NCBI GenBank assembly: GCA_051362555.1
Contig: CM120646.1
Span: forward strand, 13,330,001-13,394,000
Origin: Lingula anatina
Lineage: Eukaryota; Animalia; Brachiopoda
Reading direction: 5' to 3'
DNA length: 64,000 bases
The notes below the pieces were generated by a model. The model was not told the DNA's origin, did no database searches, and was given only the letters and a program-made list of their open reading frames with translations. Position numbers and translations under genes: made by a program. Below are positions 5,665 through 50,236 of this stretch, in pieces (position 1 is the stretch's first letter; every line of letters begins with the position of its first letter).

Positions 5665-5695
<31 letters not shown>

Positions 5696-8600: not shown

Positions 8601-11600
8601 ATTTGTCTAATGGTAGGTGTATAACGCAAACAACGTCACTATTCTCTTGATGCCAAGATGGTCACATGATCACTCTGTCTTTGGCTTTCAGCATTTAAGA
8701 GACCTCGACTGATTTAACCAAGATGTAGTCGTGAAATTCTAGACTACATCGAGGTTAAATCCGAGTTTTCCGAGAGATGCTACGCAGAAATGTCGAGTGA
8801 AGCGAGATATTTTTGGGTAGCGGCTCGAGGTTGCCCTCGATCTTCACTGCAGCTTGGCTAAATGGACAGGCTTCAGTGATCATCATATCGCCACGGTCAT
8901 ATAACATCCCTAGGTATGTATTTTCATAGTAATGAACACGTGCTTGTTGACGACTTACCGACTCCTGGTCTTGCCATACCCAATGGTCCTGGATCCCACG
9001 GTCATTGAGGCCAAGCCAAGAAGACTCCGTAAGTTTTTCTAAAAAAAAATTGGACGTTTTTTTGTCACATATAGTGTAGCGTGAAAATAGTTTACAAATA
9101 ATGGATAATTAATATGCCTTGAATTTGTTTTCATGGAAATCGCCTGTTGTTTAAATTTTCAGCAGTATCTATACACGAATGTTGTCATATAAAAAGAGAA
9201 AAAAAATGGGGTAGGCAGGACATATATAAGCGTAATACCTTGAAGGTTTTATGGTTTTCCTATTTTATGCTTGTCAGTATCACTTATTGTTGTGTTGCTT
9301 TTAGAAACAGTAGAAACATTTCAACAGGTTACTTCTCTATCAAAACTGTATGTAAACACCAGACGTTGATTAAACGGGTATCTGCACATCGGTGAGTAGG
9401 TAATGCACATACGGAGAGTGTGTGTGTGTGTGAGTGTGTGTGTTTGTTCATGCGTGTGTGTGTGTGTGTGTGTCCGCATAAATACTCACTTTGAATAAAG
9501 GCCATCTCCCTTGCATTATCAATTTTCACAAGATGTGCTCCCATCTTAAGACACGCGTCTCGTGCACTCAGCCAGGAAGACGAAGCAGTGTTTGCATAGT
9601 AGTAACAAGAAAAGCCGTGTCCTTCCCAGCCGGAATCGCACGTACCGTTGGCTTCATTCAGAAATAACATTTTGACAGTATCAACATAGATTTTTCACTG
9701 TTACGATACCTTTGAAAAAGTTGACTATTGGCTTTTTAAACAAGTGAGATTTCAATTAGTGCGAATGACAGTTTTCGAAAATTTAATGAACTTACCTGGG
9801 AGAACCGTTGGTGGAAAGACAATTTTGTCATCTGAAACCTGGCATATAAATTGCTGTTCGTGCAGACAGTGCTCGCTGGTGGTCCACTTTCTATCATCTA
9901 TACAAAACACACCAACACGTTTAAATCGTTGAAACGTACATCAATATTACAGACTTTTGAACAGTAAATACACCGCTTACTTTATGCGAATGAATTACTT
10001 TAAAGTCAAGACCATATCAAGTATTCAGCTCTCCAGATTAGCAGTCTTAATTAGTTTTGAAAAAGCCATAAAAAGCTTAAGATTTATGGTGTTGCTGATG
10101 AAACCTTTATTACCTGCCCGCATCTGTACACACAGAGAGTAAGAGCTCCTCTTTGGTTGTGCCGGTTCCCAGTTAGAGTACGCTTCCGTTATATTCGTCC
10201 CATCAGTCCAGTGCAATTCTTTGGGATTAAGATCAATATCTGAAACGTTGAATTACGGCGTAGTTGCTGATATTATATTTGCGAAATATAGAAACCAGAA
10301 GCATAGAATTTGATATGTCTCGCAAATGTTAACATGTAGTTTTCCAATTAAAGCTGCTTGAAAGTTAGCTGCTGAGTAAAAAATATAAAACCAATATAAA
10401 TATTTTATTATTAATTGTGCAGGTTGGAGATAATGCATTTAGTATTAGGTGGAAATTTTAGTTTTGTTGAATTTTGTCTTCGATTCAACCCTTTACTCGA
10501 AGTTTGTGACACCTGTTCATATGTATGTAGTGCAGATTCATAATATACACTCCGCCCATTGTATACTTCGGGTATTTTACAAAATGAGTACAGGTAACGG
10601 TTGCTGAATGCTCGACGGGATTTCTTTAATTCTCAACTCGGTCCTTATTTATAATAGGAACAACTTTATATGTACTATGTGGTTTAGAGAAGAAGATTCT
10701 TTAAAATGTGGTTGACCTGGCCCACATAAAACTAGAGGGAAATTGTAGCCTGTACGTTCTCAAAGCACTACGTAATATGTCGCCAGTTTGATTAGGATGT
10801 ATGGCAGCATGGGTTTAAATAAGTTGTCACACTGGGCAAACGGCCTTTAAAAATGTTTTCAACACAACACACAAACAGTACCGCCATGCATAAACACTTG
10901 CTTCGTCATTTCTGGTAAATTCATACCACCATTACTTACCCGAGCCCCCAAGCCAAATCTCCGTCTGGAATCCCATATCCCGAACTTTATCTTCGATGAA
11001 GTTCTGCGTTTTTTTACTATAACAAAAGCGACTACATGTAAAATTACAGTAATTTTAATAGGTGACATCAGTTTTAAAGCAGCTCATTGACAAAAAATAA
11101 AAAATAATAATATTAATAAATGAAGAATGGATTAGAGTCAGTCAACGAAAAGTGAGACACCTTTATACTGTACCGTAATGTTAGCCAGTGTTTTCCAGAA
11201 AAGCATTACACTATGTCCCATGACCACTTAAGCAGAATATAACTTGGTCTGGCCACATTCGATTCTACATTTGTTTACTCAGTTTTGCTCTAATAATAAC
11301 TGATAACTTAATACACTATAACCATTGATATATTATTCTGAACTGAAGTTTGGACATTTTATAAAAATGCTTGAAAGAAGGGACAACTATTACAAGCTTA
11401 CAACACATGAAAACAGTGTAGATGTACAGTACAGCCTATGGCACCCATCTAGAGTCCGAAGAAAAGAGAAGTAGCCAATGATGGACTGGGAGAAGGAAAT
11501 GGCTAACATGTTATACCCCCCCCCCCCCTTGGTTCTTCATGTACCAAGGCAAAAGTTTTCAACTTCCTTACCTCTGTATAGTAACCATTTCTGCTCCCTG

Positions 11601-13497
11601 CGATCTACAATAGGTGGCAGCATCATACCAGGATAGCTGGAGGTTGGCATTAAATTGGTAGCACGTGCCGTTATGAGCAACCCAGCCCGTTGCACATGTT
11701 CCTTAAGGAAGAACAGTCAAGTATAATCCGGGAAAACAGACGTACACATATGTCTTTAACATTTACAGTTTTGGTCGTCAAAAGCATGAACAATGAATAA
11801 GGATATAATATTACATAAATTAATAAATGAAATGATATTAGAAAGAAAAAATGGCAAACAATTAGACAGGTTGAATAGATCAAGTAAAATGTATTAAAAT
11901 AAGGAAAAGGGGAGTATTGTTGGATGAGATTATTTGCCTCAAAGTTTTTTATGAGATGCATACAAGAAATTAAAGTTTATTCTGAAGCAAGGTGGTAAAA
12001 TAAAACAGTATCATATGACCTGCTGTACACGCTTTCTCATTACGACAAAAATAAAAGCAACAATTTCGTTAACATTGTAAAACATCCTGTTAACATAACT
12101 ATTCCACTGCTGCATCATTCACCTTCACGTTTTTTACAAATATATGATCTTTCTGTAGTGCACAGGTTTGCAACCCACGATTGCTCGGCCTCTTCCGCTG
12201 TTGGAACCACCTCTGCACACATGCCTTCTCTTGTATCTCTGTAATAAGAGTGATGCGAATTTTTGTATTCCATACATCGTAAATATGACTTCTCAAACTA
12301 AGAAATACGATGTTCAAACAAGTTGTTCGCACAACATTAAGGCTTTTTGGGAGCTAAATCATGATGCAAGGTGTCGTCTTGTAAGGTTTTGTTAATTGAA
12401 ATCAAATGCAATTAATGAGTCCCATGTTTAGCTTTACGAAGTCCCGTCAGCATGAATTACAATGGGTGTAAAATTTGCCCATAGAGATTGCAAAGTATTA
12501 GGTATCTCAATCTCTCCATACATTAAGAGAATACAAACCCCATAGCTTGTGGTCTACGTCCATCTGACCAAAACTCCGAGTCGGACTGATTACTGTGAAC
12601 TACTGGATCCAATCCAACACCGTTTTTCTTCCACTGCATGTCAGTCTATAAGAGCAAAAATTGTATGTACGAAATAATGAAGTACGTTTAAAAATTAGAA
12701 ATGGATTATCAACTACATGAAAATGATAGATTGTAGGATATATCTTACCCTATAAAGTCTCACTGCTGTTGGTATTGTCGAAAAGGTGTAGGCGAGCAAA
12801 TTGCCATTACATGATCAGAAGTACTTACAGAATTAATGTCCAAAGAATAACCAATCCAAACGGGCTTATTTCTGAAGCGGGAAACATCGTAGATATACTG
12901 CTGCTGTACAGCGTTATCCACCGTGGCTAATTCTGCACCGTAATTGCCGCAATCGGCTCTAGAGTTAGGATAAAAAATAGAATTCAATGAAAAAAGAACC
13001 AAATTGTTATTGCAGAGTTCGGGGAACAGATCATAGAAAAACATTGTGTGTGCGTGCGTGTGTGTGTGTGTGTGTGTGTCACAGGCCAGATTACTCACTG
13101 GCCTAGACCACATCCCAATTGGGTCTTTGCATTGTTAATGAGCATGAGCATAATGAGCATGTTAATTGGCCAATTTATTTACAGGCGAGCTGCCAGTTTG
13201 TGTGTTTGGCATGTGTTATTTAATAGGGGATGTCATAGATCAAGGCACATATTATGATACTTACAGGTGTGGCAAATAAAATAAAGTTGTATTCATAATT
13301 CACCATGAAGTTTGCAAAAAACGTCCGAGGACGATACTTTTAGAGATAATTGCATAAATGTTTAAAGAAAAGGCATGTAGATTGATTTAGTAACATTAAG
13401 TAAGGGAATGTTAAATTAAAGGCGAACCGAGTGCTGTTGTAGTGTCAAGGGCAAGAAAAAAATATATCCAACTCTTCATGGGTTGAAGATTATTGAA

Positions 13498-16569: not shown

Positions 16570-16908
16570 TTTGTGCTGTACACAGGTCGAAGGAAAACCC
16601 AATAATGTCATGGGATTCACAATTCACACCACCGGTGATATGATAGGATTCACCAAAAGCCCAATTGGGCATCCTGTCACCTGTTTATCATAATCGTTAA
16701 AACACTATCACGATGTTCACTTCAACAACAGATACCGGACACTGTCCTAAACTCCAAGTACGGAAATTATCTAAGGTCTATCGTGATAGCAATTTCATAG
16801 TGGCGTTGAATCGATTGATAATGGGTAAATATCTATTCGTGGGACGATAATACATCATTTGAGTACAGGTAGTCATAATGGGACGTCATAAAAAAATAAA
16901 ACCACATA

Positions 16909-17147
16909 CACACACTGGACAATAGAAGTTTCACCCCTACTGAACCAATACTTTGTGGGAGATGAATGACTGTGGAATGATATACTCCTGGTATCATTTT
17001 ATTAACATCAAATGTCACTAAAGAAACGGTTCTAACTTAACAATTCAACAGCATCGATATTCTGACATTGCTTATATTCCGCCTCTTCAGGTTAATAACT
17101 TTGATTACTCTGATTCAGGGGGTGACACTTCTATTGTCCAGTGTGTG
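16909..17147. mobile_element. Tc1/mariner-type MITE (TA TSD)
   Basis: ta|cacacactggacaatagaagt ... acttctattgtccagtgtgtg|ta. The same element is at 27011-27249 in unit B, so it predates the duplication. Confidence 0.75.
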
Positions 17148-18934
17148 TACACTGTTGGAAGAACTGAAACTTAATCCTTATAAGCGCAGAATACATATAC
17201 GTTATATATTTTGTAAAAGAACAGCATACATTTACACATGCACATTGGGCCTCGCAAAAAAACCACACTTTACTTTCGGTTTAATGAGCATGTTTACCTA
17301 GAGAAAAAAGTGTATTTTGGATCAGGTCAGATCACACTGGCTCATGCCTAGAAAATTCAGAAGCAAAACGAAATGTCAACGAACGTGTACTCGCTTTCAC
17401 TACTACACTGTGCGTCAGTGAACAGAAGTTGGACGTTAGGGTGGTGGGTGGGGGTGAGGCAATATCGTTCGTTTTGACTTTCCCCATTTCCAATGTTTAA
17501 TTTGCAAACAAACTAAGCCAAATCTGTATAAAGAGATAACAACTCTTCATATGATGCTCCAAAATCCACAATAAATACATCAGAAATGTGAAATAAATTC
17601 CAATTTACCACCAAAATGGCGGTTATCGCAATTATTCTGGAATCTGTGCTTGCCACTGGTCCACAGTGACCCTCATGGATGGGTTCCCTTCGTGATGATT
17701 TCTTAGAGGTTATTTAAAAAACTACACAAAAAAATTCAATTGACTAACTTTTAATGTCGAAACGGATTCAACAACCAAAGTAAAGTATTCGGAAATTGTC
17801 GTTTACCCCAGTAACGTAAAATCCGTTTTACGGCACTTTTCCCGCCAAAATGAAGAGTTATCATCCCTTTAAATATCTCTTCTTCCACAGAAGAATTTTG
17901 CTGAGCGCCCGATCACCGCCATTTTAATTCACAATAGATTTGATCCGGATAAACATTTTTCTGTAACTTTATTTGCGTCGTACATTGAAGCACCCAATGT
18001 CTATAATTCGACTAATTATCTGAACTGCGGTATCATATAGTTAAATCTAAATGAAGAAGATCGTCCCTATCTAAACTTCATGCTAATGTAGGCATTACTA
18101 TTAAGGTTATTTTGTCTCCAAATAAATAGGGTCTAAACTGAACAATTCTTGCAGTCGTTGTATTAAACTGAACCATCAACTATATTTATGGCTGTATTGA
18201 TGTACCAGCCGATACTAGTACTGATGTTTGTGCAGGTTGGAAACCTTACTGATGTTTCCCGTTTCATTTGAAAAAGAGGCATGCCTACCGAAAAACGTAT
18301 CATTTAAAAATCTTCAACCAAACGATAAATTGATGTAATGTTTATTTGGTTATATCCACAACAAATTAAAACGTTCAACGTGACTTTTGTGGCTATTTCA
18401 TATATTTGACATTGGCATTATTAACGCTACTATTTCATTTTTGTACTTTTTATTAAAGTAATTGAATAACAAATTTTTTGTGTATTTTTCTATTCAATAA
18501 ATTACAGTATCATCCTTAGTGCACATCAAAGCGCAATTGTTTATGAAATACCACACCCAGTACTTAAAAGTAATAATTCATATATGTGCGTTCATACCCA
18601 GCATGATATATTTCAAGTATAATATATAACCCTTACACCTTGCAAGCTTCACTACCCAACCCAACTCCTAAGGCAATAATATACATACATGAATATTAAG
18701 GTATTGTCCCCAGAAAATGGATCATGACCCGAAAACACCACGTTGTAGTCCATAAATCAAACTGCCTTTACTACATTCCAAGCACATGTATGCAAGTTAC
18801 AACGTGCTTTTGATATATCACCGACGCGAGATTTACATGTAAATGGCCCAAGAAAAATAAATACATTACACATTCAAACAATGGATTAATAAAATTTTTT
18901 CAATCAAAGACACTGATATGAAAGAAATGTTCAA

Positions 18935-21900
18935 TCAAATAATGTCACCACAGAAGACACAAAATGTGTTGAGAATATAACGACACAGGGTCCCAAGCCT
19001 TGATCGTGGAAATTGTGTCTCATTATTCACAACAACCATTGTATGATGATCTAAGATTTCCTTCCATTTCGGCATTTCGCGGTTCTTATCATACCGATAT
19101 GTTTGGCAAATATTGACCACATTGATCGATCGAGCGAATTCTGCACCCAGCATTGTCAAAGCATGCTCTTTTGTATCAGAACTTTTTTCAGGATGCACAC
19201 CAAACACTTGGTGTGAATATCGAGCAGCGGTCTTTGCAAGAAGTTGGGATAAGGTTACCACCTTGTCTTCAGTAATAATTTGAGTCAAATACTCCAGAAT
19301 GCATTCGCGAATAAAAGAGTTTCGTTCTTCAAATTTCATAACAACTTCATTTAACTCCGATGTCATGTTACCTTGTCGTGCGATGGTGTTATGTAGCGAG
19401 CTAAGCGGCTTCAGCAAAACAGCATTCGTTTTCATAAACACTCCGCCATGCATATACAATAGTACAAGTGGCATTAATGTTGTATCATAATTGCTATGTT
19501 GCGTTTCTCTCGATTTGACCATTTCCAAAAAGCTTGCAATAGGTTCCGTGAAAGTGTTGGGGTCATACTGGGTAAGTTGATCCAACATCATGCCCAATGT
19601 GTAGTTCTGAACGGCCACGTGATACCCGACTTCTGTGAACAGTTGCACATCCGACTGACCCAAAGTGTTGCTATATATTAACACCTTCGCAAAGGGGTGA
19701 TGGTAAAATATACTTTCTATTGAACGACGTTCTTTCAGAGAAAGGAAAGAAGACCAGGACAAAAGGGAGAATATTAATTCGTTTCTGAGAGGGGCATCTG
19801 GGATATTTAGAGGAACAATGCCAAAAGTTATAGCAGTTTCGCGGAAGTCATGTCGTTTTTGAATCTCATGCCACAAAGTAGCACGCAACCGCATCATCTT
19901 ACCGCCGTTTGGATTAGGTTGCGGGCGATCCCAGTCAAACCCTTCAAGTCCCGAAAACGTCTTCGTTTTGCCTTCACCCTTAGTAGTGACTCTGTGGAAC
20001 AAATCTGATAACCCTTCGAGTCGATAGTGAGAACCTCCCGGCAGATGATCTGTGTGAACAAATACGACTGGTGTGCCCATGGCAACAGAGGGTAATGCGC
20101 AATGGAGCCTTGATGTTATAACCAATTTCGCACGTGCGTATCGTTTAATCAAACTATACACGTGCTCCATCAGTGACCATGCATTGATTCGCACAACGTG
20201 TGATATTGAAATAAGAGATGCTTTAATATGGTGGGGAACGATTTCTTTTAAAGTACTGTTATCAACGTCGACAACAATTATTTCTTGGCCTCTTTCGTGC
20301 TTATCAAACGGGTTTTCCAGTAAAAGGGTGGCACATCCCGACAGGTACGAGTCTACGTTGTTGTCTAATAGGCTTCGTACAGTGAACGTATCACGCGCAC
20401 CAACTAGACCTTTGTCGTGAATATAGTTTGCATTTGTTTTCTTTAAAAACGATCTTTGTAAAAACTGGTTGGTCATATGCATTGATATCAACAATGGATC
20501 TACATAAGGTGGAGGAGGCCATGTGGTTTCCAGCCCGTACCATGCATTGATGATCATTGTGACAGTTTCTTTCTTTTTTTCGGTTGGTGTCTTTTGTTTT
20601 GGGTTGTTACCAATGCTAGACACAGACCAATCCTCTCGGTCGACACATCTGTCCAAGTAAGGCAGAAATTGCAATGCTGCCCAACTTTGCATTTCATCTC
20701 CCAAGTTGTGTGATCGCCCGGTGTAGCAGAGCATGCCGTAGTGATTTTGTCTCGGGGGTAATTTTATCAAAACCTCACTAGGACTGGCTTTTGTTATCAA
20801 ATTACTATCCTGTTTCAACTGAAATGCAAGAGACTCTATATTCCAAGTTTTGGCATTTTCGTTTTTTAAATAGTTTATATGAGTTTCTGTCATGACCCGT
20901 TCAATAAACGGTGACCCTTTCTCAAAACGTGACTGTAGGAACATACTACTGTTGCTGATCCATTCACCAATGAAGAAATCATCCGGTATTGGGGAAGGAA
21001 TGTCGTACAAAAGATTAAGGTACAGCCCACCATAGTTCCACAACACAAGCAGAACGCTTACCTGATGCAAATATGAGATGAAACGTTCACCATGCTTATG
21101 ACGGTAATATATAGATTCTGAGACAAATTTTTTAAGAGGTGTATCCTTAGCCAAATAACGTAGAAACAGACGAGTTGCTGCAACATTTCTGAATTTACCC
21201 GCCAATTGAATCCTGTTTATTTGATCTTCACAATGCTCGCTCCCACAAAATACAGTTACGTTTCGATTAGAGTTGGAAAAGAAGATTTGCTGGATCTTGG
21301 TTTCTAAATGTGCCGGGATTGCCCTATAATCTGACCACACTAACAGTAAATCCATCTTCGTATCAGTGTAATTAGTGTTTATATCCTCTAAGTATCCGTT
21401 CTTGATCTTCTTACTTCCGTTAGCCTTTAAGTCTTCATCTGTTTTCCCAACAATGCCTCTTGGTTCATCTTTTGCGTGTTTTCCTGAAATTTGATGTCTC
21501 GCACCCTGGTGAAGAAAGAGAATAAATTGTGTTTTTCTTGATGCCTTTACACCTGTTCTGTACATGGGCTAGTAATTGCAGCGCAGTCTAGACTTCTCAT
21601 ATTTAAAAATCTGCGTGGGCAAAGGTTTATTTTTGAGATATAACATGGAGGGGGTTTAACCTTAAAAGGGGAAAGGCACCACCTGACGGATTCAAAGGAA
21701 TGAACCATGATGTCTTACTGTGCTAATTAAGTGGCGCCAAAACTCAACATTCACTGTCTTTTTCATGGTAAATACCTTGGAATATAGCTGCTTGAAAAGT
21801 TTTAATGCAAGGGTCGTGTAAGTGCAGTAGACATACAGAATGTTCCAATGTTAAGTGTAAAGATTAACAATTTGCAGGTGTATGTCAATCATAATCCTAT

Positions 21901-22239
21901 CGAGTTTAAAACTCACAAATAAAGGCATAATGCTATACATGAAAAGACTTAAGCATAATTTGTCCTTAGCAAAGTATACTACTTTCTGCGTTCCTTGTTA
22001 TTTTTCTTTGAGAAAAATGCCGTTTTCAGTTGGTGTAATAATTAATCTATCAACTATCTCTTAATCCTGATAAATAAAGATGCTCAGGAAGTGGCTTTGT
22101 ACTTTCGATTTCAAACACTGTCATCATTAATTATATTACTTACCATGAAATGAAGTGCATTCCAAAAGATCTGAAGTATGAGAAGAACAAGTATTCCAGT
22201 AAAGAAAACCAGCTTTGGTCTTTGTGACATTCGAAGCAT
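18935..22239 (-). CDS. Type II membrane protein: GT32-like (degenerate) + polysaccharide pyruvyltransferase + GT32-like (degenerate); copy A, 888 aa
   Basis: Exon 22144-22239 encodes MLRMSQRPKLVFFTGILVLLILQIFWNALHFM with a GTAAGT donor. It splices in phase 0 to the 2571-nt exon 18935-21505 (acceptor ttcttcaccag). Pyruvyltransferase motifs: HNLGDEMQS, NAWY, WPPP, ISMH, GARD, YLSGCATL, VITSRLHCALPSVAMGTPVV. GT32-type motifs on the N side: DTPL..LWNYGGLYLNL..FEKGSPFI. On the C side: RRSIESIFYHHP..LYMHGGVFMKTN..FEERNSFIRECILEY..CVFCGDII. Confidence 0.88.
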
Positions 22240-22297
22240 CGTGCTTGAAGATCTGTAAATACAATAAAAGAAAAATAATATGGGTTTCACGACGTGC

Positions 22298-22373
<76 letters not shown>

Positions 22374-22406
22374 CCCAGTATTGTGGACGTGCTATTATAT
22401 ATATAT

Positions 22407-22470
<64 letters not shown>

Positions 22471-22498
22471 CACGTCCACAATACTGGGTAACAACAAT
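22298..22498. repeat. (TA)n microsatellites with a fold-back inverted repeat
   Basis: Two TA tracts. The second is flanked by perfect ~31-bp inverted arms (22364-22498). Confidence 0.9.
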
Positions 22499-25084
22499 GG
22501 ACTACCATCTTTAAAAATCTGTCAAATATTCCTTGCTGGATTATAATGGAGGTACTTTCATGTGAAAGCGGACGGATGTGTCTCATTATAACAAACAATT
22601 TCGTGTTTCTAAACTTTGCAGTGTATTTTAAACTTTTGAATTCTTTGTTGAAAATGACACTTAAACAGCACTTAAATCGGGGACACAGACATACCAGTCT
22701 GTTTTGCTGCCGTACATTTTGGAAAAGAAGGCTGTTAGAATTGTATTGTCACGACATTTGGTCAACTCAGGGATCCTTTAGGGCACACATAATAGAGACA
22801 AACAAAAATTGTTCTTCGTCGCAAATTTTGATGGGTGGAGGAAGCGGGCTGTTGTGCGTTACAATCGTTTCGTTTTCAGCCTGAGTTCAAAGTATTATCT
22901 TCCATACATATGAACTATACAATTAGTTCAATTTCAGGATTTAAATACCTAAAATCCACTCTGCTTTTCGTAGAGAAACAATGTGTAAGGGAATCCTATC
23001 ATCTGAGCGTGTAATCACAGATGTTATGGTCCAATCCTGTTTTGTTTGCTTCAGACACGCACAACAGATAGTTTCGTTTCCCCATTCAGATTCGAACCAA
23101 GGACCTAGCATAAATAGTGGAGATTTCCATTGATGACGCAATGACCACTTAAATATTAAATGAATTAGCTGCAGCCGGTTCCCACTTTTTGGCGAAAAAC
23201 GATTTCATGTCATCGCTGTTTAACCGCCGATTCAGGCTAGCAGCGTGCTTTCTCAACTCTGTGAAGTTATGTGCACTCTTTCCTGATCCTTACAATGTAA
23301 TTCATGTATAATGTACAATGTTTACAATGTATGATTTTGAGTGGTGGTCTTTGGGATACTAATATCGTCATACCTGTCAACCATAGTGCAAAGAAGGGGG
23401 AAACGATCAAAATTGTTTAAAGTATACAAAACGAATGTCAAAAAAATTCCCAAATACACCTGTACACTTACAGAGACAATACCTTGAATCTCAAGCGGTT
23501 CACAGTTCCAAGACGATACAGGCCTCTATTTGGATGTGATATTCTGAACTTGTTTGTGTTCAGAATTGTTTAAGTAAAGCTGTTGCAGCCCTGACAGTGT
23601 TAGAGCTCATGATTGATGAGGACAACGAGGGCCAAGATCTTAAACATGAGCCTCTTCGGTGAGGGAAGAGAGGACTGTTGCGCTGGAGCTGATTAAACAT
23701 TGTTTTATCGGGTGTTAAAACGTTCTCAACCTCATTCGACGACTCCAAATGGTGAATTGACCCACTAAACATTTTTGACTTTGTTCAATACAACTGTGGT
23801 ATCTATGTGGTTAACAGTATGCTTTTAAAGAAAAACCTCATACCCCTTTAAAAAATTTCACAATTAAAACGACTCCAACCTTATAAATAAGACTGCAATA
23901 CTTCTCCATTCTTGGTACATTTATTGCATCATATATGTATAAATCAATTAATCTAAAGTGTACGTAAATTACTTAAGGCCTAATACGTAATCCTTACAAT
24001 GTAATTTATGTATAATTATGTAATCATATGTGTATTTATACAATCTTTACAGCGTAAGGTTTGAATGGTGGCCCCTGCGGTTTCTGTAATTCATAAATAA
24101 CATACAGTGTCAATGCCACTGTCAAGAAACCCAACTGATAACAAAAGGCAAAATTACTCAGAAGGGGCTATTTTAATCTGTCACAAAAGAGCAAGTGATT
24201 TAAATCAGAGCAATTAACTGTCTTGATTGCTCTGACTTAGCCTGGATCTGTTAAATGGCAGTGTCTGAGCAGTTATGCAAACAATTCTGAATAGCTTGTT
24301 TTATATTGAAGTTAACTGAGGAATCGGCTAAGTAGCTCCCTACAGAGCGGGTACAATACTGTCTGCGCGAGGGTAGATTTAATTGCTTCCATCTGGCCAA
24401 AAGTTATAGGGTGGATTTTCCCATTTTGTACCACCCTGGAAGAGGGTGGGTTTGAACACTCGCAAATCTTTATAGTCAGGAAAAGAAGGGTGTCAACAAA
24501 GCTGCTTAACGGTCTGTTCATAACCAGCTGATCCACGTACTAACAGACCTGCAGAACAAATTCGGGGCGACCCACTTGAAAGCATGCCGAAATTTTAATT
24601 GCTCTGCCCCTGCTGGGACGGCGGGCGTATCAGAATCCGTATAAGAAATGATATCATAATTACCCTATGCAATTAGGCAATTAGCATTTTCTTGACAAGA
24701 GACCACCCTTTGCTACTCACACGTTGTACCTCTTCTTGATCGTTATCTTTACTTGGCTGGCTGGAAAGTCAGTCCAAGTTTGTACTGAATGTGTGAGGGG
24801 AGATTATCACTTAAGTGGAAGTCAGACTAATAATAGTCTTAGTTCTGATCTGAAATGGTACCTTAGACCAAACCAGGTGCACTAATGTACACAAAGGAAT
24901 GCTTATACGAAAGGGTTTTATTTAAAAACTACAGCTTTTAACACCACCGTGCCAAAAAATAAGATGAAATAAAATTAAACAACCTGAAATTTCCAATATT
25001 TTTTAGGATTAGATTTTAATTTTTTGTACGAGATAAAACAGACTGTGAGAGTCGGTTCAAGTCTATATGATACAAATGTTTTTA

Positions 25085-25960
25085 ATACAGGCGTGCTAGT
25101 GGGGTGGATCAGCGAAAGAATCGTGACACGTTGGATAAAAGGGCCAAATTTAGCATATAGTTACCCTTTGACATACTAAATCAAATTAGAGACGTAGCCT
25201 ACGGAAAAAATTTACTGTTTGGTCAAAAAACCCAAAATGGCCGCTAACTTGTGGAATTCTATAGCAATTTATACATACGTATATGATATTCATCAAAAAA
25301 GTATTTTCACAGTGTTTTCCACATCCTTATTACTCATATTATGCATGCATGTATATGTCAGATAGCAAAAGAGTTCCCTTGGACTTTTTGAAAAATTCCA
25401 AGATGGCGGCCGTATTTCACAGGAATACTAGAACATGTACAAGCGTTTTCAACTAATGCCAACTAGAAAGGTGCGTTGTCCACTATCTATTTAACTTTGT
25501 TTCTGAGTGTTTTCCAGATCCTTATTATTCAAATAATATATTTGTGGTGAGTAACCAACCCTCATTTTTAAGCATTTCAAGAAAATCCAAGATGGCCGCC
25601 ATGTCAAAGTAATACTAGTATACACATGGGGTTTCTGCTGCCAGGGATATATGATAATAATGTTTGTTTCTGAGTATTTTTCACATCCTTTTAATCCATA
25701 TAGTACATATGTGATGAGAATGTTATGTGTATCCTTTACATTTTGAAAACAAAACAAAATGGCTGCCATTAGCCATAAGAAGTGGGGTCCAGTAAATGCC
25801 GAGAGATAGGCTACCTTCAAAATGAAGCTAAATTCAGGCATTCAGTTTGTTTTTCAGTGTTTTCATATCATTATTATCCCATGATACATTTCTATTAGGT
25901 AATAATGTGCATATTTGATCATTTTGGATCATTTTGGGAAATCCAAGATGATTTAAATTT
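25085..25960. mobile_element. Degenerate non-autonomous DNA element with repeated CAA(G/A)ATGGC motifs
   Basis: aaaatggccgc, caagatggcggcc, caagatggccgcc, aaaatggctgcc and ccaagatg recur at roughly 150-180-bp spacing with similar intervening sequence. Confidence 0.5.
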
Positions 25961-26189
25961 TTGGTCAGAAATTTAACCTACTTATGTGATCTACTTTTCT
26001 GCACCATGTATATACAGCATAGTAAGCTAGCAGAAAAATCCATTCAAATATCATTTGTCGGGAAATGTTAAACAATGCCTTCTGACAATTTTCTTAATTA
26101 TACTGTTTGAAACTATATGCTGACATTTGGTTGGTTTTTGTGGCAAAAAATTGATTTTGTATGCATCTTTAATAGGCCTATTTTAAATA

Positions 26190-26868
26190 AGCACACGTTA
26201 CTGCAAGGAGGGACACCAAGCGTTTCTGTCGAGCAGGCTGCTCCACGCTTTCAACAGCTCCACACGTTTACAATGGGAAGTGCTAAGCCAAATTGTTGAG
26301 CCTTGTACTAAACTTATGGGACCGGTGAAACTAATCACAAAGCTAAAAGTGCGACACTTCTAAGCATGTTAAACATTTTTATTTCTTGTGAAAGAAGCTT
26401 GAAAATCTAAACATGTTGTTCAGCTACCCTCTACCAGGGCGTCAGATTTATTTTTTACAGATATTCACAGATATAATTCTAGTTAAATAGACAGTCATTT
26501 CGGTCTGATGTCGCCTCAGCAAAAAATGTCCACCATAACTGCGGCCCTGGTAGAGGGTATTGTTAAGCAGCTCCACGTGTTTACGAATTCCACACCTATA
26601 GCAGCTCCATATGTTTAGCAGCCTCACGCGCTTAGCAGGGAAGGTGCTAAGCCAATGTGCTTAGCTTGCGATAGACTTACTATAGGTTCATATACCGGTG
26701 AAGCTAAACACATAGCTAAACGTGTAACACTGCGAACGTGTTTAGCATTTTCTTCTGCGAAACGCTTGAAAAGCTGTACGTGTTTAGCTTTTACACACAT
26801 TTCTAAATGCGTATAGGTGCTTAACGTATGTTGTATGTATTTAAATGCTAAACACTGTTTTTACAGTG
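26190..26868. mobile_element. CACTA/EnSpm-like remnant with subterminal repeats
   Basis: Many gctaa(a/g)c and gtttagc motifs in both orientations, ending in tttttacagtg (reverse complement of CACTGTAAAAA). The left end was not identified. Confidence 0.45.
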
Positions 26869-26875
26869 TATGACA

Positions 26876-29800
26876 TATCGTGATAGCAATTTCATGGTGG
26901 CGTTGAATCGATTGATAATGGGTAAATGTTTATTCGTGGGACGATAATTCATCATTCGAGTAGATCTACAGGTAGTCATAACGGGTCGTCATAAAAAATA
27001 AAACCACATACACACACTGAACAATAGAAGTTTCACCCCTACTGAACCATTACTTTGGGGGAGATAAATCACTGTGGAATGATATGCCCCTGGTATCATT
27101 TTATTAACATCAAATTTCACAAAAGAAACGGTTCTGACTGAACAATTCAACTGTATCGATATTCTGACATTGCTTATATTCCGCCTCTTCAGGTTAATAA
27201 CTTTTATAACTGAGATTCAAGGGGTGACACTTCTATTGTCCAGTGTGTGTACACTGCTGGAAGATCTTAAACTTAAAACTAATAAGCGCAGAATACATAT
27301 ACGGTATATATTTTGTAAAAGAACAGCATACATTTACACATGCACATGAGGCCTCGCGAGACATCCATTTAAACACTTTACTTTCGGTTTAATGAGCATC
27401 TTTACCTAGAGAAAAAGTATATTTTGGATCAGGTCAGATCACACCGGCTCGTGCCTAGAAAATTTAGAATCAAAACGAAATGTCAACGAACGTGTACTCG
27501 CGTTCACTACTACACTGTGAGTCAGTGAAGAGAAGTTGGACGTTTGGGTGGTGTGTGGGGGTAGGGCAATATCATTAGTATTGACTATCCCCATTTCCAA
27601 TGTTTAATTTGCAAACAAACCTGTTAAAAAGGATAACAACTCTTTATATGAGAGTCCAAATTCCACAATTAATACATTGTTAACAACAAAAATGTAAAAT
27701 AAATTCCAATTTACCACCAAAATGGCGGTTATTGCAATTATTCTGGAATCTGTGCTTGCCATCGGACCACAGTGACCTTCATAGATGGCTTCCTTCTGTA
27801 ATGATCTCTTAAGATATTATTAAAAAAACTACACAAAAAAATCCAATGGACTAACTTTGAATGTCGAAACGGATTCAACAACCAAAAGAAAGTATGGGTA
27901 AAATCCGTTTTACAGCACTTTTCCCGCCAAAATGAAGAGTTGTCATCCCTTTAACAGTAAAAAATATCTTTTTCCACAGATGAATTTTGATGTGCGCCCG
28001 ATCGCCGCCATTCTAATTCACAATTGATGTGATCCGGATACACGTTCCTGTAACTTTATTTGCGTCGTACATTGAAGCACCCAATGTCTAACACAGCGAA
28101 TTATCTGAACTTCGGTATCATATATTTAAATCTGAATAAAGAAGATCGACAAGATCTGAACCTCATGCTAGTGTGGGAATAACTGTCAGAATTATTTTGT
28201 ATACAAATAAATAGGGTCTAAACTGAACAATTCTTGCAGCCGTTGTATTAAACTGAACCATCAACTATATTAATGGCTGTATTGATGTACCGGCCGATAC
28301 TAGTACTGATGTTTGTGCAGGTTGGAAAGCCTACTGATGTTTCCTGTTTCATTTTAAAAAGAGGCATGCCTACTGAAAAACGTATCATTTAAAAATCTTC
28401 AACCAAACGATGAATTGATGTAATGTTTATTGCTTCATATCCACAAAAAAAAAATGAAACGTTCAACGTGACTTCGATGGCTATTTCATATATTTGACAT
28501 TGCCATTATTAACGGCACTATTTCGTTCTTGTACTTTTTATTAAAGTAATTGAATAAAACAATTTTGGGTATTTTTTTCATTCAATAAATTACAGTCTCA
28601 TCATTATTGCACATCAAAGCGCAATTGTTTATGAAATACCACCCCCAGTACTTAAAAGAAATAATTCATATATGTGCGTTTATACCCAGTATGATTTATT
28701 TCAAGTGTAATATGTAACCATTAAAACTTGCAAGCTTGACTACCCAACCCAACTCCTAAGGCAATATGTGCACACATGACTATTAAGGTATTGTCCCTAG
28801 AAAAGGCATCATGACCCTAAAGGTCCAAATATCAAACTGTTTTTACTACATTCCAAGCACACGTATGCAAGTTACAACGTGCTTTTGATATATCACTGAT
28901 TTACATATAAATGACCAAAGAAAAATGAAATACATTACACATTAACAAAATTGATTCATATTTTTTTCAGTCAAAGACACTGATATGAAAGTAGGGTTAA
29001 ATCAAATAATGTCACCACAGAAGACACAAAATGTGTTGAAAATATAACGACACAGGGTCCCAAGCCTTGATCGTGGAAATTGTGTCTCATTATTCACAAC
29101 AACCACTGTATGATGATCTACGATTTCCTTCCATTTCGACATTTCGCGGTTCTTATCATACCGATATATTTGGCAAATATTGGCCACATTGATTGATCGA
29201 GCGAATTCTGCACCCAGCATTGTCAAAGCATGCTCTTTTGTATCAGAACGTTTTTCGGCATGCACAACAAACACTTGGTGTGGATATCGAGCAGCGGTCT
29301 TTGCAAGAAGTTTGGGTAAAGTTACCATCTTGTCTTCAGTAACAATCTGAACCAAATACTCCAAAATGCATTCGCGAATAAAAGAGCTTCGTTCTTCAAA
29401 TTTCATAACAACTTCATTTAACTCTGATGTCATGTTACCTTGTCGTGCAATGGTGTTATGTAGCGAGCTTATCGGCTTCAGCAAAATAGCATTCGTTTTC
29501 ATAAACACTCCGCCATGCATATACAATAGTACAAGTGGCATTAATGTTGTATCATAATTGCTATGTTGCGTTTCTCTCGATTTGACCATTTCCAAAAAGC
29601 TTGCAATAGGTTCCGTGAAAGTGTTGGGGTCATACTGGGTAAGTTGATCCAACATCATGCCCAATGTGTAGTTCTGAACGGCCACGTGATACCCGACTTC
29701 TGTGAACAGTTGCACATCCGACTGACCCAAAGTGTTGCTATATATTAACACCTTCGCAAAGGGATGATGGTAAAATATACTTTCTATTGAACGACGTTCT

Positions 29801-32340
29801 TTCAGAGAAAGGAAAGAAGACCAGGACAAAAGGGAGAATATTAATTCGTTTCTGAGAGGGGCATCTGGGATATTTAGAGGAACAATGCCAAAAGTTATAG
29901 CAGTTTCGCGGAAGTCAGGTCGTTTCTGAATCTCATGCCACAAAGTAGCACGCAACCGCATCATCTTACCGCCGTTTGGATTAGGTTGCGGGCGATCCCA
30001 GTCAAACCCTTCAAGTCCCGAAAACGTCTTCGTTTTGCCTTCACCCTTAGTAGTGACTCTGTGGAACAAATCTGATAACCCTTCGAGTCGATAGTGAGAA
30101 CCTCCCGGCAGATGATCGGTTTGAACAAATACTACTGGTGTGCCCATTGCAACAGAGGGCAATGCGCAATGGAGTCTAGATGTAATAACCAATTTTGCCC
30201 GTGCGTATCGTTTAATCAAACTATACACGTGCTCCATCAGTGACCATGAATTGTTTCGCACAACGTGTGATATTGAAATAAGAGATGTTTTAATATGATG
30301 GGGAACGATTTCTTTTAAAGTACTGTTATCAACGTCAACAACAATTATTTCTTGGCCTCTTTCGTGCTTATCAAAAGGGTTTTCCAGTAAAAGGGTGGCA
30401 CATCCCGACAGATACGAGTCTACGTTGTTGTCTAATAGGCTTCGTACAGTGAACGTATCACGCGCACCAACAAGTCCTTTGTTGTGAACATAGTTTGCAT
30501 TTGTTTTCTTTAAAAACGATCTTTGTAAAAACCATTTGGTCATATGCATTGATATCAACAATGGATCTACGTAAGGTGGAGGAGGCCATGTGGTTTCTAG
30601 CCCGTACCATGCATTGATGATCATTGTGACGGTTTCTTTCTTTTTTTCGGTTGGTGTCTTTTGTTTTGGGTTATTACCAATGCTAGACACAGACCAATCC
30701 TCTCGGTCGACACATCTGTCCAAGTAAGGCAGAAATTGCAATGCTGCCCAACTTTGCATTTCATCTCCCAAGTTGTGTGATCGCCCGGTGTAGCAGAGCA
30801 TGCCGTAGTGATTTTGTCTCGGGGGTAATTTTATCAAAACCTCACTAGGACTGGCTTTTGTTATCAAATTACTATCCTGTTTCATCTGAAATACAAGAGA
30901 CTCTATATTCCAAGTTTTGGCATTTTCGTTTTTTAAATAGTCTATATGAGTTTCTGTCATGACCCGTTCAATAAACGGTGACCTTTTCTCAAAACGTGAC
31001 TGTAGGAACATACTACTTTTGCTGATCCATTCACCAATGAAGAAATCATCCGGTATTGGGGAAGGAATGTCGTACAAAAGATTTAGGTGCAGTCCACCAT
31101 AGTTCCACAACACAAGCAGAACACTTACCTGATGCAAATATGAGAGGAAACGACCACCATGCTTATGTCGGTAATATATAGATTCTGAGACAAAATTTTT
31201 AAGCGGTGTATCCTTAGCCAAATAACGTAGAAACAGACGAGTTGCTGCAACATTTTTGAATTTACCCGCCAATTGAACCCTGTTTATTTGATCTTCACAA
31301 TGCTTGCTCCCACAAAATACAGTTATGTTTCGATTAGAGTTGGACAAGAAGATTTCCTGGATCTTGGTTTCTAATTGTGGCGGGATTGCTCTAGAGTTTG
31401 ACCACACTAACAGTAAATCCATCTTTGTATCAGTGTAATTATTGTTTATATCCTGTAAGTATCCGTTGATGATCTTCTTACTTCCATTAACCTGTAAGTC
31501 TTCATCAGTTTTCCAAATAATGGTTCTTGATTCCTCTTTTGCGTGTTTTCCTGAAGTTGGTGGTCTCGCACCCTGGTGAATCAAAAGAGAACACATTGCG
31601 TTTTTATTGATGCCTTTACACCTGTTCTGTGCATGCGCTAGTAATTGCAGCGCAGTCTAGACTTCTCGTATTTAGAAACCTGTGTGGGCAAAGGTTTATT
31701 TTTGAGATATGACATGGAGGGGGCTAAATAGGTCGAGTGTTGGAAAAGGCACCACCAGATGGATTCAAATGAGTGAACCATGATGTCTGACTGTGCTAAT
31801 TAAGTGGCGCCAAAACTCAACATTCACTGTCTTTTTCATGGTAAACACCTGGGAATATAGCTGCTCAAAAACTTTTAATGCAAGGGTCGTGTTAGTAAAG
31901 TAGATATGCAGAATGATCCAATGTTTAGTGTAAAGATTAACAATTTGCAGGTGTATGTCAATCATTCGTCTATCGGGTTTTAGACTCAGAAACAAAGGCA
32001 TCATGCTATACATTAAAAGACTTAAGCACCCTTTGTACTTAGCAAAGTAAACTACTTTCTGCGTTCCTTGTTATTTTTCATCTATCATCATCTATCAACT
32101 ATCTCTTAATCCTGATAAATCAAGATGCTCAGGAAGTGGCTTTGTAATTTCCATTTCAAACCCTGCCATCATAAATTCTATTACCTACCATGTAATGAAG
32201 TGCGCTCCAAAAGATATGAAGTATGATAAGAACAAGTAGTCCAGTAAAGAAAACCCGCTTTTGACTTCGTGACATTCGAAGCATTGTGCTTGAAGATCTG
32301 TAAATAAAATAAAAGAATAATAATAATATTGGTTTTACGA
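26876..32340. repeat. Segmental duplication unit B
   Basis: Same orientation as unit A, offset about 10.1 kb. Non-coding parts are visibly more diverged, with small indels, than the central CDS. Confidence 0.95.
29002..32284 (-). CDS. Paralog of the GT32-like/pyruvyltransferase/GT32-like protein; copy B, 888 aa
   Basis: Exon 32189-32284 encodes MLRMSRSQKRVFFTGLLVLIILHIFWSALHYM with a GTAGGT donor, joined to exon 29002-31572 (2571 nt, same length as copy A). All motifs are retained, with no frameshift or stop. Confidence 0.88.
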
Positions 32341-32368
32341 ACAGACAAAGGTATTACAATTGAGGAAG

Positions 32369-32423
<55 letters not shown>
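32369..32423. repeat. (TA)n microsatellite
   Basis: Pure TA tract at the position equivalent to the tract at the end of unit A. Confidence 0.95.
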
Positions 32424-49100: not shown

Positions 49101-50236
49101 ATCATATTTTTACCCTGGCCAAGGAGGTTATGTTTTCACCCCTGTTTGTCTGTCTGTCATCAACATAACTCAATAAGTTATGGACCGATTTTGATGAAAT
49201 TTTCAGGAACTGTCAGAAGTGGCCCAAGGAAAAGATGATAAGGTTTCGGTGGTGATCTGGATCAATAATCAATCAATAATAATCAAAAATGGCTGCCTTG
49301 GCAGAGGTCTGCGCTTAAATTATCATTACACTGGGTTCATGGCAAGACATCAAACACTCACCTGTGTATATAAAATCCACAGCACAAACAGCAACAAGAC
49401 ATCAAAAGTGACCATGATACAAAACGCCCTCCGACTGGTGGACATAGGTTTACAACATGGACAGGGATTGGTCTCGTAGGCCACTGATGATGATAATGTT
49501 GTGGAGCCATATGTTGGTGCAGTACCTCCATTAGAATAAGAGCTGGGTCTGAAATTTAAGAAGTTTGACTGATGTCGTTTAAAGAAAAAATTAATTAACG
49601 ATCCATTTATCATGGGGTTTACCTGGCATAAAAAAGGCATGTCCTCAAGGACGTTTTTGTAATGCAAGACAGCAAAATTTATTTCGAGTTTTTTATATTC
49701 AAAGAAGATAGTGACTGTGTTTGATTCTACAGTGTATTGTTAACAGTCATACAGATATACTGGGTACTTGTAAAACTAGAATGAAATATTGTATATGAGT
49801 ATATCAAAAACAATAAACTAAGTCCTTCTCTGTAAAAAATCAACAATACTTTAACTTACACATTATGTTTAAGTATCATTATTCCATATACATACATGTA
49901 CAAGGGTTGCTCAACTCCTTTCCATCCCTTATCGATTCTTGGTTTTCATAATATTCTGGCATTCTCTCTCTCTTTCAGACACATGCACCCAAAACATTCG
50001 TGTGTATGAACACACACACACACACAACAAAAACAACAACATTCTCTCTTTTCCTTACCCTCTCTCTCTGTCATGCATACAAACATACTAGCCATTCTCT
50101 TTCTCTGACACACACACACACATGTTTCCATCCACCTTGTCCCTCTGTCACCCTATTACCTGTTATAATTGTATGGTGCTGAGCCATGGTAAAGGAGACG
50201 TCCTGCTTGTTGTGCTACCTCCTCGCGCTGTCCCAT
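43110..50236 (-). CDS. STARD3: StAR-related lipid transfer protein 3 (MLN64): MENTAL domain + FFAT-like motif + START domain, ~496 aa
   Basis: 13 phase-consistent exons: 50160-50236, 49362-49548, 48555-48641, 48323-48400, 47780-47833, 47216-47339, 46754-46879, 45899-46005, 45249-45416, 44596-44691, 43842-44026, 43581-43674, 43110-43217. MENTAL motifs: RRAFCIMVTFDVLL, YDFKQSLFD, ISFVVAWVECWFLDFRVLPEE. FFAT-like QYYSP. START motifs: WNPTV, AAGGMVSARDFVNLR, YVRGENGPG, NTNLKGWLPTYLIDQAM. Confidence 0.95.
47030..47530. repeat. Intronic tandem repeats either side of a STARD3 exon
   Basis: A ~99-bp unit x2 (gctatgaacttctaatcttac, 47030-47200) and an AT-rich ~38-bp unit about x5 (ataataagtaatgaaaaatttt, 47350-47530). 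Confidence 0.8.
48879..49044. mobile_element. MITE with CAG termini and 5-bp TSD (tacta)
   Basis: tacta|cagaggcagattt ... ggatccgcccctg|tacta, with internal gaagac repeats. Confidence 0.75.
49108..49316 (+). mobile_element. Helentron-associated (HINE-like) element
   Basis: gccaaggaggttatgttttc, then a (tgtc)n run, ending ccttggcagaggtctgcgct. Degenerate reverse-orientation relatives lie near 50668-50900 and 62130-62240. Confidence 0.6.

What the first reader, a model, noticed from the sequence alone, without database searches (positions are those of the whole stretch)
18935..32284. Candidate animal Golgi glycan pyruvyltransferase: TM - pseudo-GT32 - pyruvyltransferase - pseudo-GT32 fusion, two intact copies
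SEEN: both genes have a spliced exon encoding a short basic tail plus a hydrophobic anchor (type II Golgi topology). A 2.57-kb intronless exon follows, whose middle (~20050-20750 in copy A) carries the full motif set NLGD / GARD / SGC.TL / VITSRLHCALP..AMGTP. Several N-x-S/T sequons fit a luminal protein. KNOWN: this motif set typifies polysaccharide pyruvyltransferases (Pfam PS_pyruv_trans), which add ketal pyruvate from PEP. They are mainly bacterial, with examples in fission yeast (Pvg1p) and giant viruses (Mimivirus L143). Pyruvylated glycans have been reported in animals (sponge aggregation factor, Aplysia phosphonoglycosphingolipids), but I know of no characterised animal enzyme. INFERENCE: this is a secretory-pathway enzyme adding pyruvate as an anionic, sialic-acid-like cap on glycolipids or glycoproteins.
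Basis: partly seen in the sequence, partly recalled or inferred. Interest (0 to 1): 0.92.

Follow-up and report, generated by a model that had tools for sequence, protein, structure and literature searches.

The report
Animal Golgi sugar-pyruvylating enzyme candidates
Two neighbouring, unbroken genes in an animal genome encode a membrane-anchored protein whose middle part has the predicted fold and conserved residues of enzymes that add pyruvate to sugars; relatives in a sponge, cnidarians and starfish are fused to a likely substrate importer, so this family likely includes the enzymes, not found in the papers searched, that make pyruvylated animal glycans.

Summary
Two tandem minus-strand genes (888 aa each, 93% identical) have a 96-bp anchor exon, a phase-0 GT-AG intron and a 2,571-bp exon. 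The central domain passes Pfam PF04230, keeps the NxGD / RxxxT / RxH residues, and its predicted fold matches Pvg1p and WbbZ, two solved ketal-pyruvyltransferases, best (Z 13.6, 12.8; next 10.1). It is under purifying selection between the copies (pN/pS 0.14). Both flanks are GT32-like without DxD. New here: the genes belong to a wide eukaryotic family. Named relatives in a sponge, two cnidarians, three starfish and an amoeba carry an N-terminal phosphate-translocator (TPT) domain, the likely PEP importer; Lingula relatives lack it, like these genes. Animals do not form one clade. No animal enzyme was found in 10 literature searches. Not shown: activity, acceptor, Golgi location, the splice junction (RNA is sparse, sense-strand) and a PEP supply here. 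Copy A may be hemizygous. The scan noted transporter-pyruvyltransferase fusions before on other DNA (chytrid, diatom, others); none matched this gene by sequence. New variant of a known kind.

The parts
22144..22239 (-). Copy A predicted coding exon 1: basic tail plus single hydrophobic anchor (32 aa)
   Evidence: ATG at 22239, donor GTAAGT, hydropathy 2.2; junction not seen in RNA
21506..22143 (-). Copy A predicted intron, 638 bp, GT..AG, phase 0
   Evidence: 90% identical to the copy B intron over 608 aligned columns
18935..21505 (-). Copy A exon 2 (856 aa plus stop)
20801..21352 (-). Copy A N-terminal GT32-like (GT-A) domain, DxD replaced (GGLYLNL)
   Evidence: profile-profile match to the C-terminal GT32 domain, probability 98.5%, control 0.1%; Atlas neighbours are GT-A families; no Pfam GT hit on its own
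19811..20755 (-). Copy A PS_pyruv_trans (GT-B) domain with N267-G269-D270, R371..T375, R466, H468 (exon-2 numbering)
   Evidence: PF04230 E 6e-12; model pLDDT 91; best matches 5ax7 and 6x1l
18938..19783 (-). Copy A C-terminal GT32/A4GT-like domain, DxD replaced (GGVFMKTN)
   Evidence: PF04488 E 5e-5; aligns with Lingula GGVYMDTD; full model matches GT-A structures
32189..32284 (-). Copy B predicted coding exon 1: basic tail plus anchor
   Evidence: about 90 bases of RNA depth in the bin holding it in run X11
31573..32188 (-). Copy B predicted intron, 616 bp, GT..AG, phase 0
29002..31572 (-). Copy B exon 2 (856 aa plus stop), same three domains; PS_pyruv_trans domain at 29878-30822
   Evidence: PF04230 E 1.6e-12; coordinates; sparse sense-strand RNA
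16779..22364 (.). Duplicated segment holding copy A (about 5.6 kb)
   Evidence: 87-91% identical to 26876-32423
26876..32423 (.). Duplicated segment holding copy B

Best explanation
These are two tandem animal genes for a predicted type II Golgi membrane protein whose central GT-B domain likely transfers pyruvate from phosphoenolpyruvate (PEP) onto a sugar as a cyclic ketal. Shown: gene structure at DNA level, family membership, conserved active-site residues, selection on the central domain, loss of DxD in both flanks. Inferred: exon 1 anchors the protein with its catalytic part in the lumen; R371, R466 and H468 bind PEP and D270 contacts the acceptor hydroxyl, by analogy with Pvg1p R217, R337, H339 and D106; the two GT32-like flanks are catalytically dead here and would act as scaffold or acceptor-binding modules. 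In about half of the family the C-terminal GT32 keeps its DxD and would add a sugar in the same polypeptide. In many relatives a fused TPT transporter would import PEP; in this animal a separate transporter would be needed. The acceptor is unknown.
For: PF04230 above the curated cut-off in both copies, 46.5 and 48.4 bits against 25.3. AlphaFold model of the domain pLDDT 91, pTM 0.90. Foldseek: the only matches at E<=0.001 are the two Pvg1p chains. VIA-align: Pvg1p Z 13.6 (rmsd 4.6, 245 aligned), 6x1l Z 12.8 (rmsd 4.5, 216 aligned), next 10.1; 6X1L is the pyruvyltransferase WbbZ (PMC10629545 passages). The motifs that paper gives as conserved, NxGD, Rxxx(S/T) and H, are all present. D270, R371, R466, H468 are kept in 132, 133, 125, 131 of 151 fusion-type relatives and 65 of 65 bacterial-context relatives. 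Between the copies, residues 251-500 have 19 synonymous and 9 non-synonymous changes, pN/pS 0.14, p 2e-7 against neutral; flanks 0.67. Named relatives with TPT + PS_pyruv_trans by Pfam: Hydractinia, Balamuthia, Halichondria, Asterias, Xenia, Patiria; Acanthaster by precomputed domains. The Patiria transporter matches the solved TPT-family translocator 5Y78 at E 2e-16; the K..KR triad is kept in 80 of 118 such domains. 105 of 118 fusions have one more hydrophobic segment between transporter and enzyme, which would place the enzyme in the lumen. S. pombe uses Golgi transporters Pet1p/Pet2p to supply PEP to Pvg1p (PMC4872226). Bacterial relatives inspected lie among polysaccharide genes.
Against: No member of this subfamily was shown here to have measured activity; identity to Pvg1p and WbbZ is 12-13% and Z 13.6 is well below the 22.1 reported between WbbZ and Pvg1p. 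The sequence match to Pvg1p is weak (E 0.025 and 0.12) and the NCBIfam CsaB model scores far below its cut-off. RNA support is thin: depth about 1 or less over parts of the coding region in X11-X13 and X17, none in X14 and X18, and no joint listed at the intron. No TPT gene lies in the window and no genome is held, so PEP supply in this animal is untested. The known animal pyruvylated glycans carry pyruvate on beta-Gal (PMC6801904), whereas the fused GT32 domain belongs to an alpha-glycosyltransferase family, so the link to those structures is not shown. No pyruvylated glycan is known to me for this animal, whose phylum was not determined.
Confidence: 0.75

Rival explanations
1. The central domain is an active PF04230-fold enzyme but does other chemistry or uses another acceptor class (for example a different donor, or a small-molecule or lipid head-group acceptor).
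For: Only 12-13% identity to the solved enzymes; other GT-B proteins follow at Z about 10; no characterised member of this subfamily was found.
Against: All modelled PEP-binding residues are kept; fusion with a TPT-family transporter in named animal and amoeba relatives fits a phosphorylated C3 donor.
Confidence: 0.13
2. The genes are decaying or non-catalytic in this animal: the protein would be a glycan-binding or scaffold protein, or copy A a silent recent duplicate.
For: Both flanks lost DxD and their pN/pS of 0.67 is not distinguishable from neutral (p 0.13); RNA is sparse; the duplicated segment ends at 22364, so copy A does not carry copy B's upstream DNA; copy A lies at about half the DNA depth of copy B in run X1.
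Against: Both ORFs are intact over 888 codons; the central domain shows pN/pS 0.14 even with the homogenised tract left out; coding-region reads in X11-X13 all lie in the sense orientation.
Confidence: 0.09
3. The locus is contamination from a protist or bacterium, or the two copies are alleles wrongly assembled in tandem.
For: The long exon is intronless and the genes nest among protist sequences in the tree; copy A has half depth in X1.
Against: The window holds multi-exon C-type-lectin, MENTAL and 7TM receptor genes; the duplicated segment includes host repeats; the nearest named relatives are three Lingula genes (97/94 support); ten DNA runs of one species label hold words of the stretch; copy B contigs are at about 98-121 and copy A at 49, which does not fit one allele each. 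X1 may be the source of the assembly and is not independent.
Confidence: 0.03

Closest known systems
Schizosaccharomyces pombe Pvg1p (PDB 5AX7) with Golgi PEP transporters Pet1p/Pet2p
   Same: PF04230 GT-B fold (best structural match); type II anchor; NxGD, R and RxH residues; in relatives a TPT-family transporter travels with the enzyme.
   Different: 12-13% identity; two extra GT32-like domains; 888 aa; animal host; transporter fused in many relatives and absent from these genes; acceptor unknown.
Klebsiella WbbZ (PDB 6X1L), Paenibacillus CsaB, Bacteroides WcfO
   Same: Same fold and the conserved motifs listed in PMC10629545; WbbZ structure is the second match (Z 12.8).
   Different: Bacterial single-domain enzymes of cell-surface polysaccharide pathways; CsaB model scores 14-15 bits against a cut-off of 213. 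WcfO and Mimivirus L143 sequences were not compared.
Lingula anatina uncharacterised LOC106160056 / LOC106160055 / LOC106160029
   Same: 37-40% identity, same domain order, no TPT, sister group with 97/94 support; three paralogues, each on a contig of the same length.
   Different: LOC106160056 keeps the C-terminal DxD (GGVYMDTD) and full Gb3_synth region; none is characterised.
Bacterial Caps_synth + PS_pyruv_trans fusions (e.g. Sphingobium WP_285833803.1)
   Same: GT32-like domain directly followed by the same pyruvyltransferase subfamily; beside rfb genes.
   Different: 559 aa, no C-terminal GT32; uncharacterised; falls outside the eukaryotic clade.
GT32 / A4GT glycosyltransferases (PF04488 + PF04572)
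   Same: Both flanks have this GT-A architecture.
   Different: DxD is absent from both flanks in both copies, so they are predicted not to be active transferases.

Membership tests
PS_pyruv_trans (PF04230) ketal-pyruvyltransferases | Pfam score above gathering threshold | tested here: met
   46.5 and 48.4 bits against 25.3
PS_pyruv_trans (PF04230) ketal-pyruvyltransferases | GT-B fold like Pvg1p/WbbZ | tested here: met
   Predicted model; top matches 5ax7 Z 13.6 (rmsd 4.6, 245 aligned) and 6x1l Z 12.8 (rmsd 4.5, 216 aligned) among 1000 Foldseek-ranked chains
PS_pyruv_trans (PF04230) ketal-pyruvyltransferases | NxGD, Rxxx(S/T), (R)xH active-site motifs | tested here: met
   N267-L-G269-D270, R371-DTF-T375, R466-L-H468 in both copies; motifs from PMC10629545. 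Matching of D270 and R371 to Pvg1p D106 and R217 is by motif, not by a printed residue alignment; the TxRLH match to 5ax7 was printed
PS_pyruv_trans (PF04230) ketal-pyruvyltransferases | PEP-dependent ketal transfer to a sugar | not testable with these tools
   Needs an assay
Pvg1p-type Golgi pathway | N-terminal type II membrane anchor | tested here: inconclusive
   Predicted exon 1 encodes it in both copies and Lingula paralogues have one, but the splice junction was not seen in RNA
Pvg1p-type Golgi pathway | A Golgi PEP transporter of the TPT family in the same organism | tested here: inconclusive
   None in the window; no genome held. Fused in relatives
CsaB equivalog (TIGR03609) | NCBIfam score above cut-off | tested here: not met
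   14-15 bits against 213
GT32 / A4GT active glycosyltransferases | GT-A domain of PF04488 type | tested here: met
   C-terminal flank PF04488 24.4 bits (A, cut-off 23) and 20.5 (B, below); N-terminal flank by profile-profile match 98.5%
GT32 / A4GT active glycosyltransferases | DxD metal-binding motif | tested here: not met
   L-N-L and K-T-N in place of D-T-D

The most novel reading that the evidence does not exclude
This is the animal glycan-pyruvylation machinery: one family, present in sponges, cnidarians, starfish, brachiopods and this animal, in which a single polypeptide can import PEP into the Golgi, add a sugar and cap it with pyruvate. It reached animals at least twice, the lineage seen here and in Lingula by a separate route from protists or an old paralogue, and it makes the pyruvylated epitopes of sponge aggregation factor. 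Pyruvylation would then be a widespread, overlooked anionic glycan cap in marine invertebrates.
Probability: 0.35. Interest if true: 0.88.

Novelty: new variant of a known kind. Interest (0 to 1): 0.74.

Why it matters
Pyruvylated glycans are reported in animals (sponge adhesion proteoglycan, Aplysia nerve glycolipid; PMC6801904, PMC6994554, passages), and the pyruvylated trisaccharide is one of the two self-binding epitopes proposed for sponge cell recognition (PMC7828597, passages). The reviews read name no animal enzyme. The 2019 sequence survey was limited to proteins of 250-600 aa, which would exclude these 850-1250 aa fusions. The family gives named, cloneable candidates, including one in Halichondria panicea, a sponge whose glyconectin glycans were partly sequenced, and predicts pyruvylated glycans in starfish, cnidarians and brachiopods.

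Tried and rejected
Sequons as evidence of a luminal protein: rejected, 8 observed against 6.6-6.9 expected. Splice junction by RNA: 6 of the 9 listed RNA runs were laid (X11-X14, X17, X18; about 6% or 25% of each read); no joint listed at either intron, with a 3-read threshold and truncated tables, so no verdict. No RNA holder was listed by the index; this is no evidence. Single-sequence search of PDB: 0 hits at E<=1. Pairwise BLAST of the two flanks: no significant match; only profiles show it. Foldseek on the full-length model listed GT-A matches and no Pvg1p among the rows shown; the domain had to be folded alone. The wide VIA search never ran. Prokaryote genomes gave one weak locus with the single-protein query; phage records none; plasmids 1-2. 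Viral contigs gave 1 and 10 unnamed loci, so Mimivirus L143 could not be placed. The alignment figure in the PMC10629545 supplement held no searchable motif text. Recent direct transfer from bacteria: rejected, since the eukaryotic-type sequences form one side of a branch against 17 bacterial-context rows (SH-aLRT 96, quick tree). A first dN/dS included a near-identical tract (residues 501-690, 3 differences; probable gene conversion); it was recomputed without it and held. Complex prediction was not used: no binding claim is made.
Full report
Observation. The window has two long minus-strand ORFs, 18935-21568 and 29002-31656, far beyond chance (longest in 20 shuffles 176 aa). They lie in a duplicated segment, 16779-22364 against 26876-32423, 87-91% identical. 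Each has a predicted 96-bp first coding exon (22239-22144; 32284-32189), a phase-0 GT-AG intron (638, 616 bp) and a 2,571-bp exon, giving 888 aa with no internal stop. Exon 1 holds a basic tail and the only strongly hydrophobic segment. The sequons are at chance level. Residue numbers below count from the start of exon 2.

Host. The rest of the window holds multi-exon C-type-lectin exons (228-13134), a MENTAL-domain exon (about 49.4 kb) and 7TM-receptor-like ORFs (57-59.7 kb). That MENTAL is an animal domain is my recall. Exon 2 GC is 0.41 against 0.37 for the window. The phylum was not determined and no genome is held.

Central domain. Both copies pass PF04230. Folded alone on an 86-sequence alignment it gives pLDDT 91. 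Foldseek's only matches at E<=0.001 are the Pvg1p chains. VIA-align on Foldseek's top 1000 chains ranks Pvg1p (Z 13.6, rmsd 4.6, 245 aligned) and 6x1l (Z 12.8, rmsd 4.5, 216 aligned) above other GT-B proteins (10.1 and lower). PMC10629545 (passages) identifies 6X1L as the pyruvyltransferase WbbZ and lists NxGD, Rxxx(S/T) and H as the conserved motifs. PMC4872226 (first two of five parts read) and PMC10435577 (passages) assign D106 to acceptor contact and R217, R337, H339 to PEP in models of Pvg1p. The equivalents here by motif are D270, R371, R466, H468. They are kept in 132, 133, 125 and 131 of 151 fusion-type relatives and in 65 of 65 bacterial-context ones (the grouping is mine and includes near-duplicates and fragments). 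Against this: identity is 12-13%, sequence hits to Pvg1p are weak (E 0.025, 0.12), and I found no measured activity for this subfamily.

Selection. Between the copies, residues 251-500 show 19 synonymous and 9 non-synonymous differences (pN/pS 0.14, p 2e-7 against neutral). The flanks show 15.5 and 38.5 (0.67, p 0.13 against neutral; p 0.002 against the central domain). Residues 501-690 are nearly identical (3 differences), probably through gene conversion, and were left out.

Flanks. The C-terminal domain is PF04488-like and aligns with the GT32/A4GT domain of relatives, with K-T-N in place of D-T-D. The N-terminal domain has no Pfam GT hit, but its family profile matches the C-terminal profile at 98.5% against a 0.1% control, and its Atlas neighbours are GT-A families. 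It also lacks DxD. Among the 150 best representatives, 52 of 97 C-terminal domains and 13 of 134 N-terminal domains keep a DxD.

Family. The first search gave 21 hits among 6,906 candidates, led by Lingula (37% over 95% of the query). The profile search's best 150 representatives split as 44 TPT-N-PvT-C, 35 N-PvT-C, 35 N-PvT, 15 PvT-C, 9 TPT-N-PvT, 7 PvT and 5 other. The profile included transporter fusions, so their share is inflated, and many entries are fragments. Most entries are unnamed. Named ones: Lingula (3, no TPT); Hydractinia, Xenia, Asterias (2), Acanthaster, Patiria, Halichondria and Balamuthia (TPT fused); Bolivina (foraminifer), Durusdinium, and Phaeodactylum (with GT8). The Patiria transporter matches the solved translocator 5Y78 at E 2e-16. 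The K..KR triad, which I recall as the phosphate-binding residues of that family, is kept in 80 of 118 domains, and in 7 of the 8 named fusions (Hydractinia has K..KC). 105 of 118 fusions have one more hydrophobic segment between transporter and enzyme, the counterpart of exon 1 here. Since S. pombe feeds Pvg1p through Golgi PEP transporters, this fusion is the best independent sign that the family uses luminal PEP. It is inference; TPT-family members also carry other phosphorylated substrates.

Origin. In a 77-row quick tree the 60 eukaryotic-type rows form one side of a branch against 17 bacterial-context rows (SH-aLRT 96; the careful search did not finish). In a careful tree of the 16 named rows, the window genes are sister to Lingula (97/94) inside a 98/97 group with Bolivina, Balamuthia and Durusdinium, apart from the TPT-fused animals. 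One animal clade is rejected (p-AU 0.001), with the caveats that I had seen an earlier tree, two protist branches are long and all unnamed rows were left out. Ancient paralogy with losses and transfer from a protist both fit. Bacteria have a Caps_synth + pyruvyltransferase fusion of the same order, a plausible remote source.

Expression and copy number. Six of nine listed RNA runs were laid. In X11-X13 the few reads on coding bins all have the first mate on +, which in most stranded libraries means minus-strand RNA. Depth is about 1 on parts of copy B in X11 and one read or so on copy A in X12 and X13; X17 has traces, X14 and X18 none. No joint was listed at either intron. In DNA run X1, an exact contig on copy A and the spacer lie at depth 47-49, copy B contigs at 98-149 and the DNA upstream of B at 96. 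This suggests copy A is on one haplotype only.

Literature. Ten searches of the held library listed no paper on an animal pyruvyltransferase or on this fusion; most subscription papers are not held. PMC6994554 and PMC6801904 (passages) report pyruvate on an Aplysia glycolipid and sponge glyconectins and name only Pvg1p as the eukaryotic enzyme in what I read; the latter's survey was limited to 250-600 aa. PMC7828597 (passages) describes the pyruvylated trisaccharide of Microciona and lists Halichondria panicea among the three sponges with partly sequenced glyconectin glycans; the passages did not say that the Halichondria glycan itself is pyruvylated. PMC11670116 has no occurrence of 'pyruv'. 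PMC10117803 (passages) gives L143 only as annotated. The scan's earlier notes describe transporter-pyruvyltransferase fusions in other eukaryotes, one mentioning molluscs; none matched this gene by sequence or place. They are unchecked leads.

Verdict. A real, intact gene pair and a strong candidate for a Golgi ketal-pyruvyltransferase (0.75). It is a member of PF04230 by every computable test, with an undescribed architecture and host range. The domain calls are already in databases, but the proteins are uncharacterised. The value lies in making the biosynthesis of animal pyruvylated glycans directly testable. Interest 0.74.

Noticed in passing
window 228-13134, minus strand: Seven short ORFs hit Lectin_C, likely exons of a multi-domain C-type-lectin gene directly downstream of the pyruvyltransferase pair. 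No functional link shown.
   Followed up: no
window 49353-49739, minus strand: Exon with the start of a MENTAL (cholesterol-capturing, STARD3-type) domain, E 3.5e-6, followed by a GTGAGT donor.
   Followed up: partly
window 57052-59668, minus strand: Two ORFs (236 and 521 aa) that look like parts of a 7TM receptor with a long N-terminal region; Srx-type hit E 7e-5 on the longer one. Possibly one spliced or broken gene.
   Followed up: no
window 19436-20005 vs 29503-30072: Near-identical tract between the copies (3 differences in 570 bp against about 5% elsewhere in exon 2), probably gene conversion.
   Followed up: partly
window 16779-26800: Copy A and the spacer lie at about half the DNA depth of copy B in run X1; possible presence/absence polymorphism.
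   Followed up: partly
window 22240-22260 and 32285-32305: A pyrimidine-rich acceptor-like site (TTTACAG) sits just upstream of each ATG, suggesting a non-coding 5' exon; copy A does not share copy B's upstream DNA beyond the TA repeat.
   Followed up: no
P0016, P0047, P0058, P0059, P0067, P0069 and related unnamed proteins: A group of TPT fusions has lost pyruvyltransferase motifs but keeps the C-terminal DxD, the mirror image of the window genes.
   Followed up: no
P0018-P0021, P0251 (Phaeodactylum): In these relatives a GT8 domain replaces the C-terminal GT32 or precedes the module, so the partner glycosyltransferase is exchangeable.
   Followed up: no
L084, L085, L089: Giant-virus contigs encode single-domain members of the same subfamily with an N-terminal hydrophobic segment and intact motifs.
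   Followed up: partly
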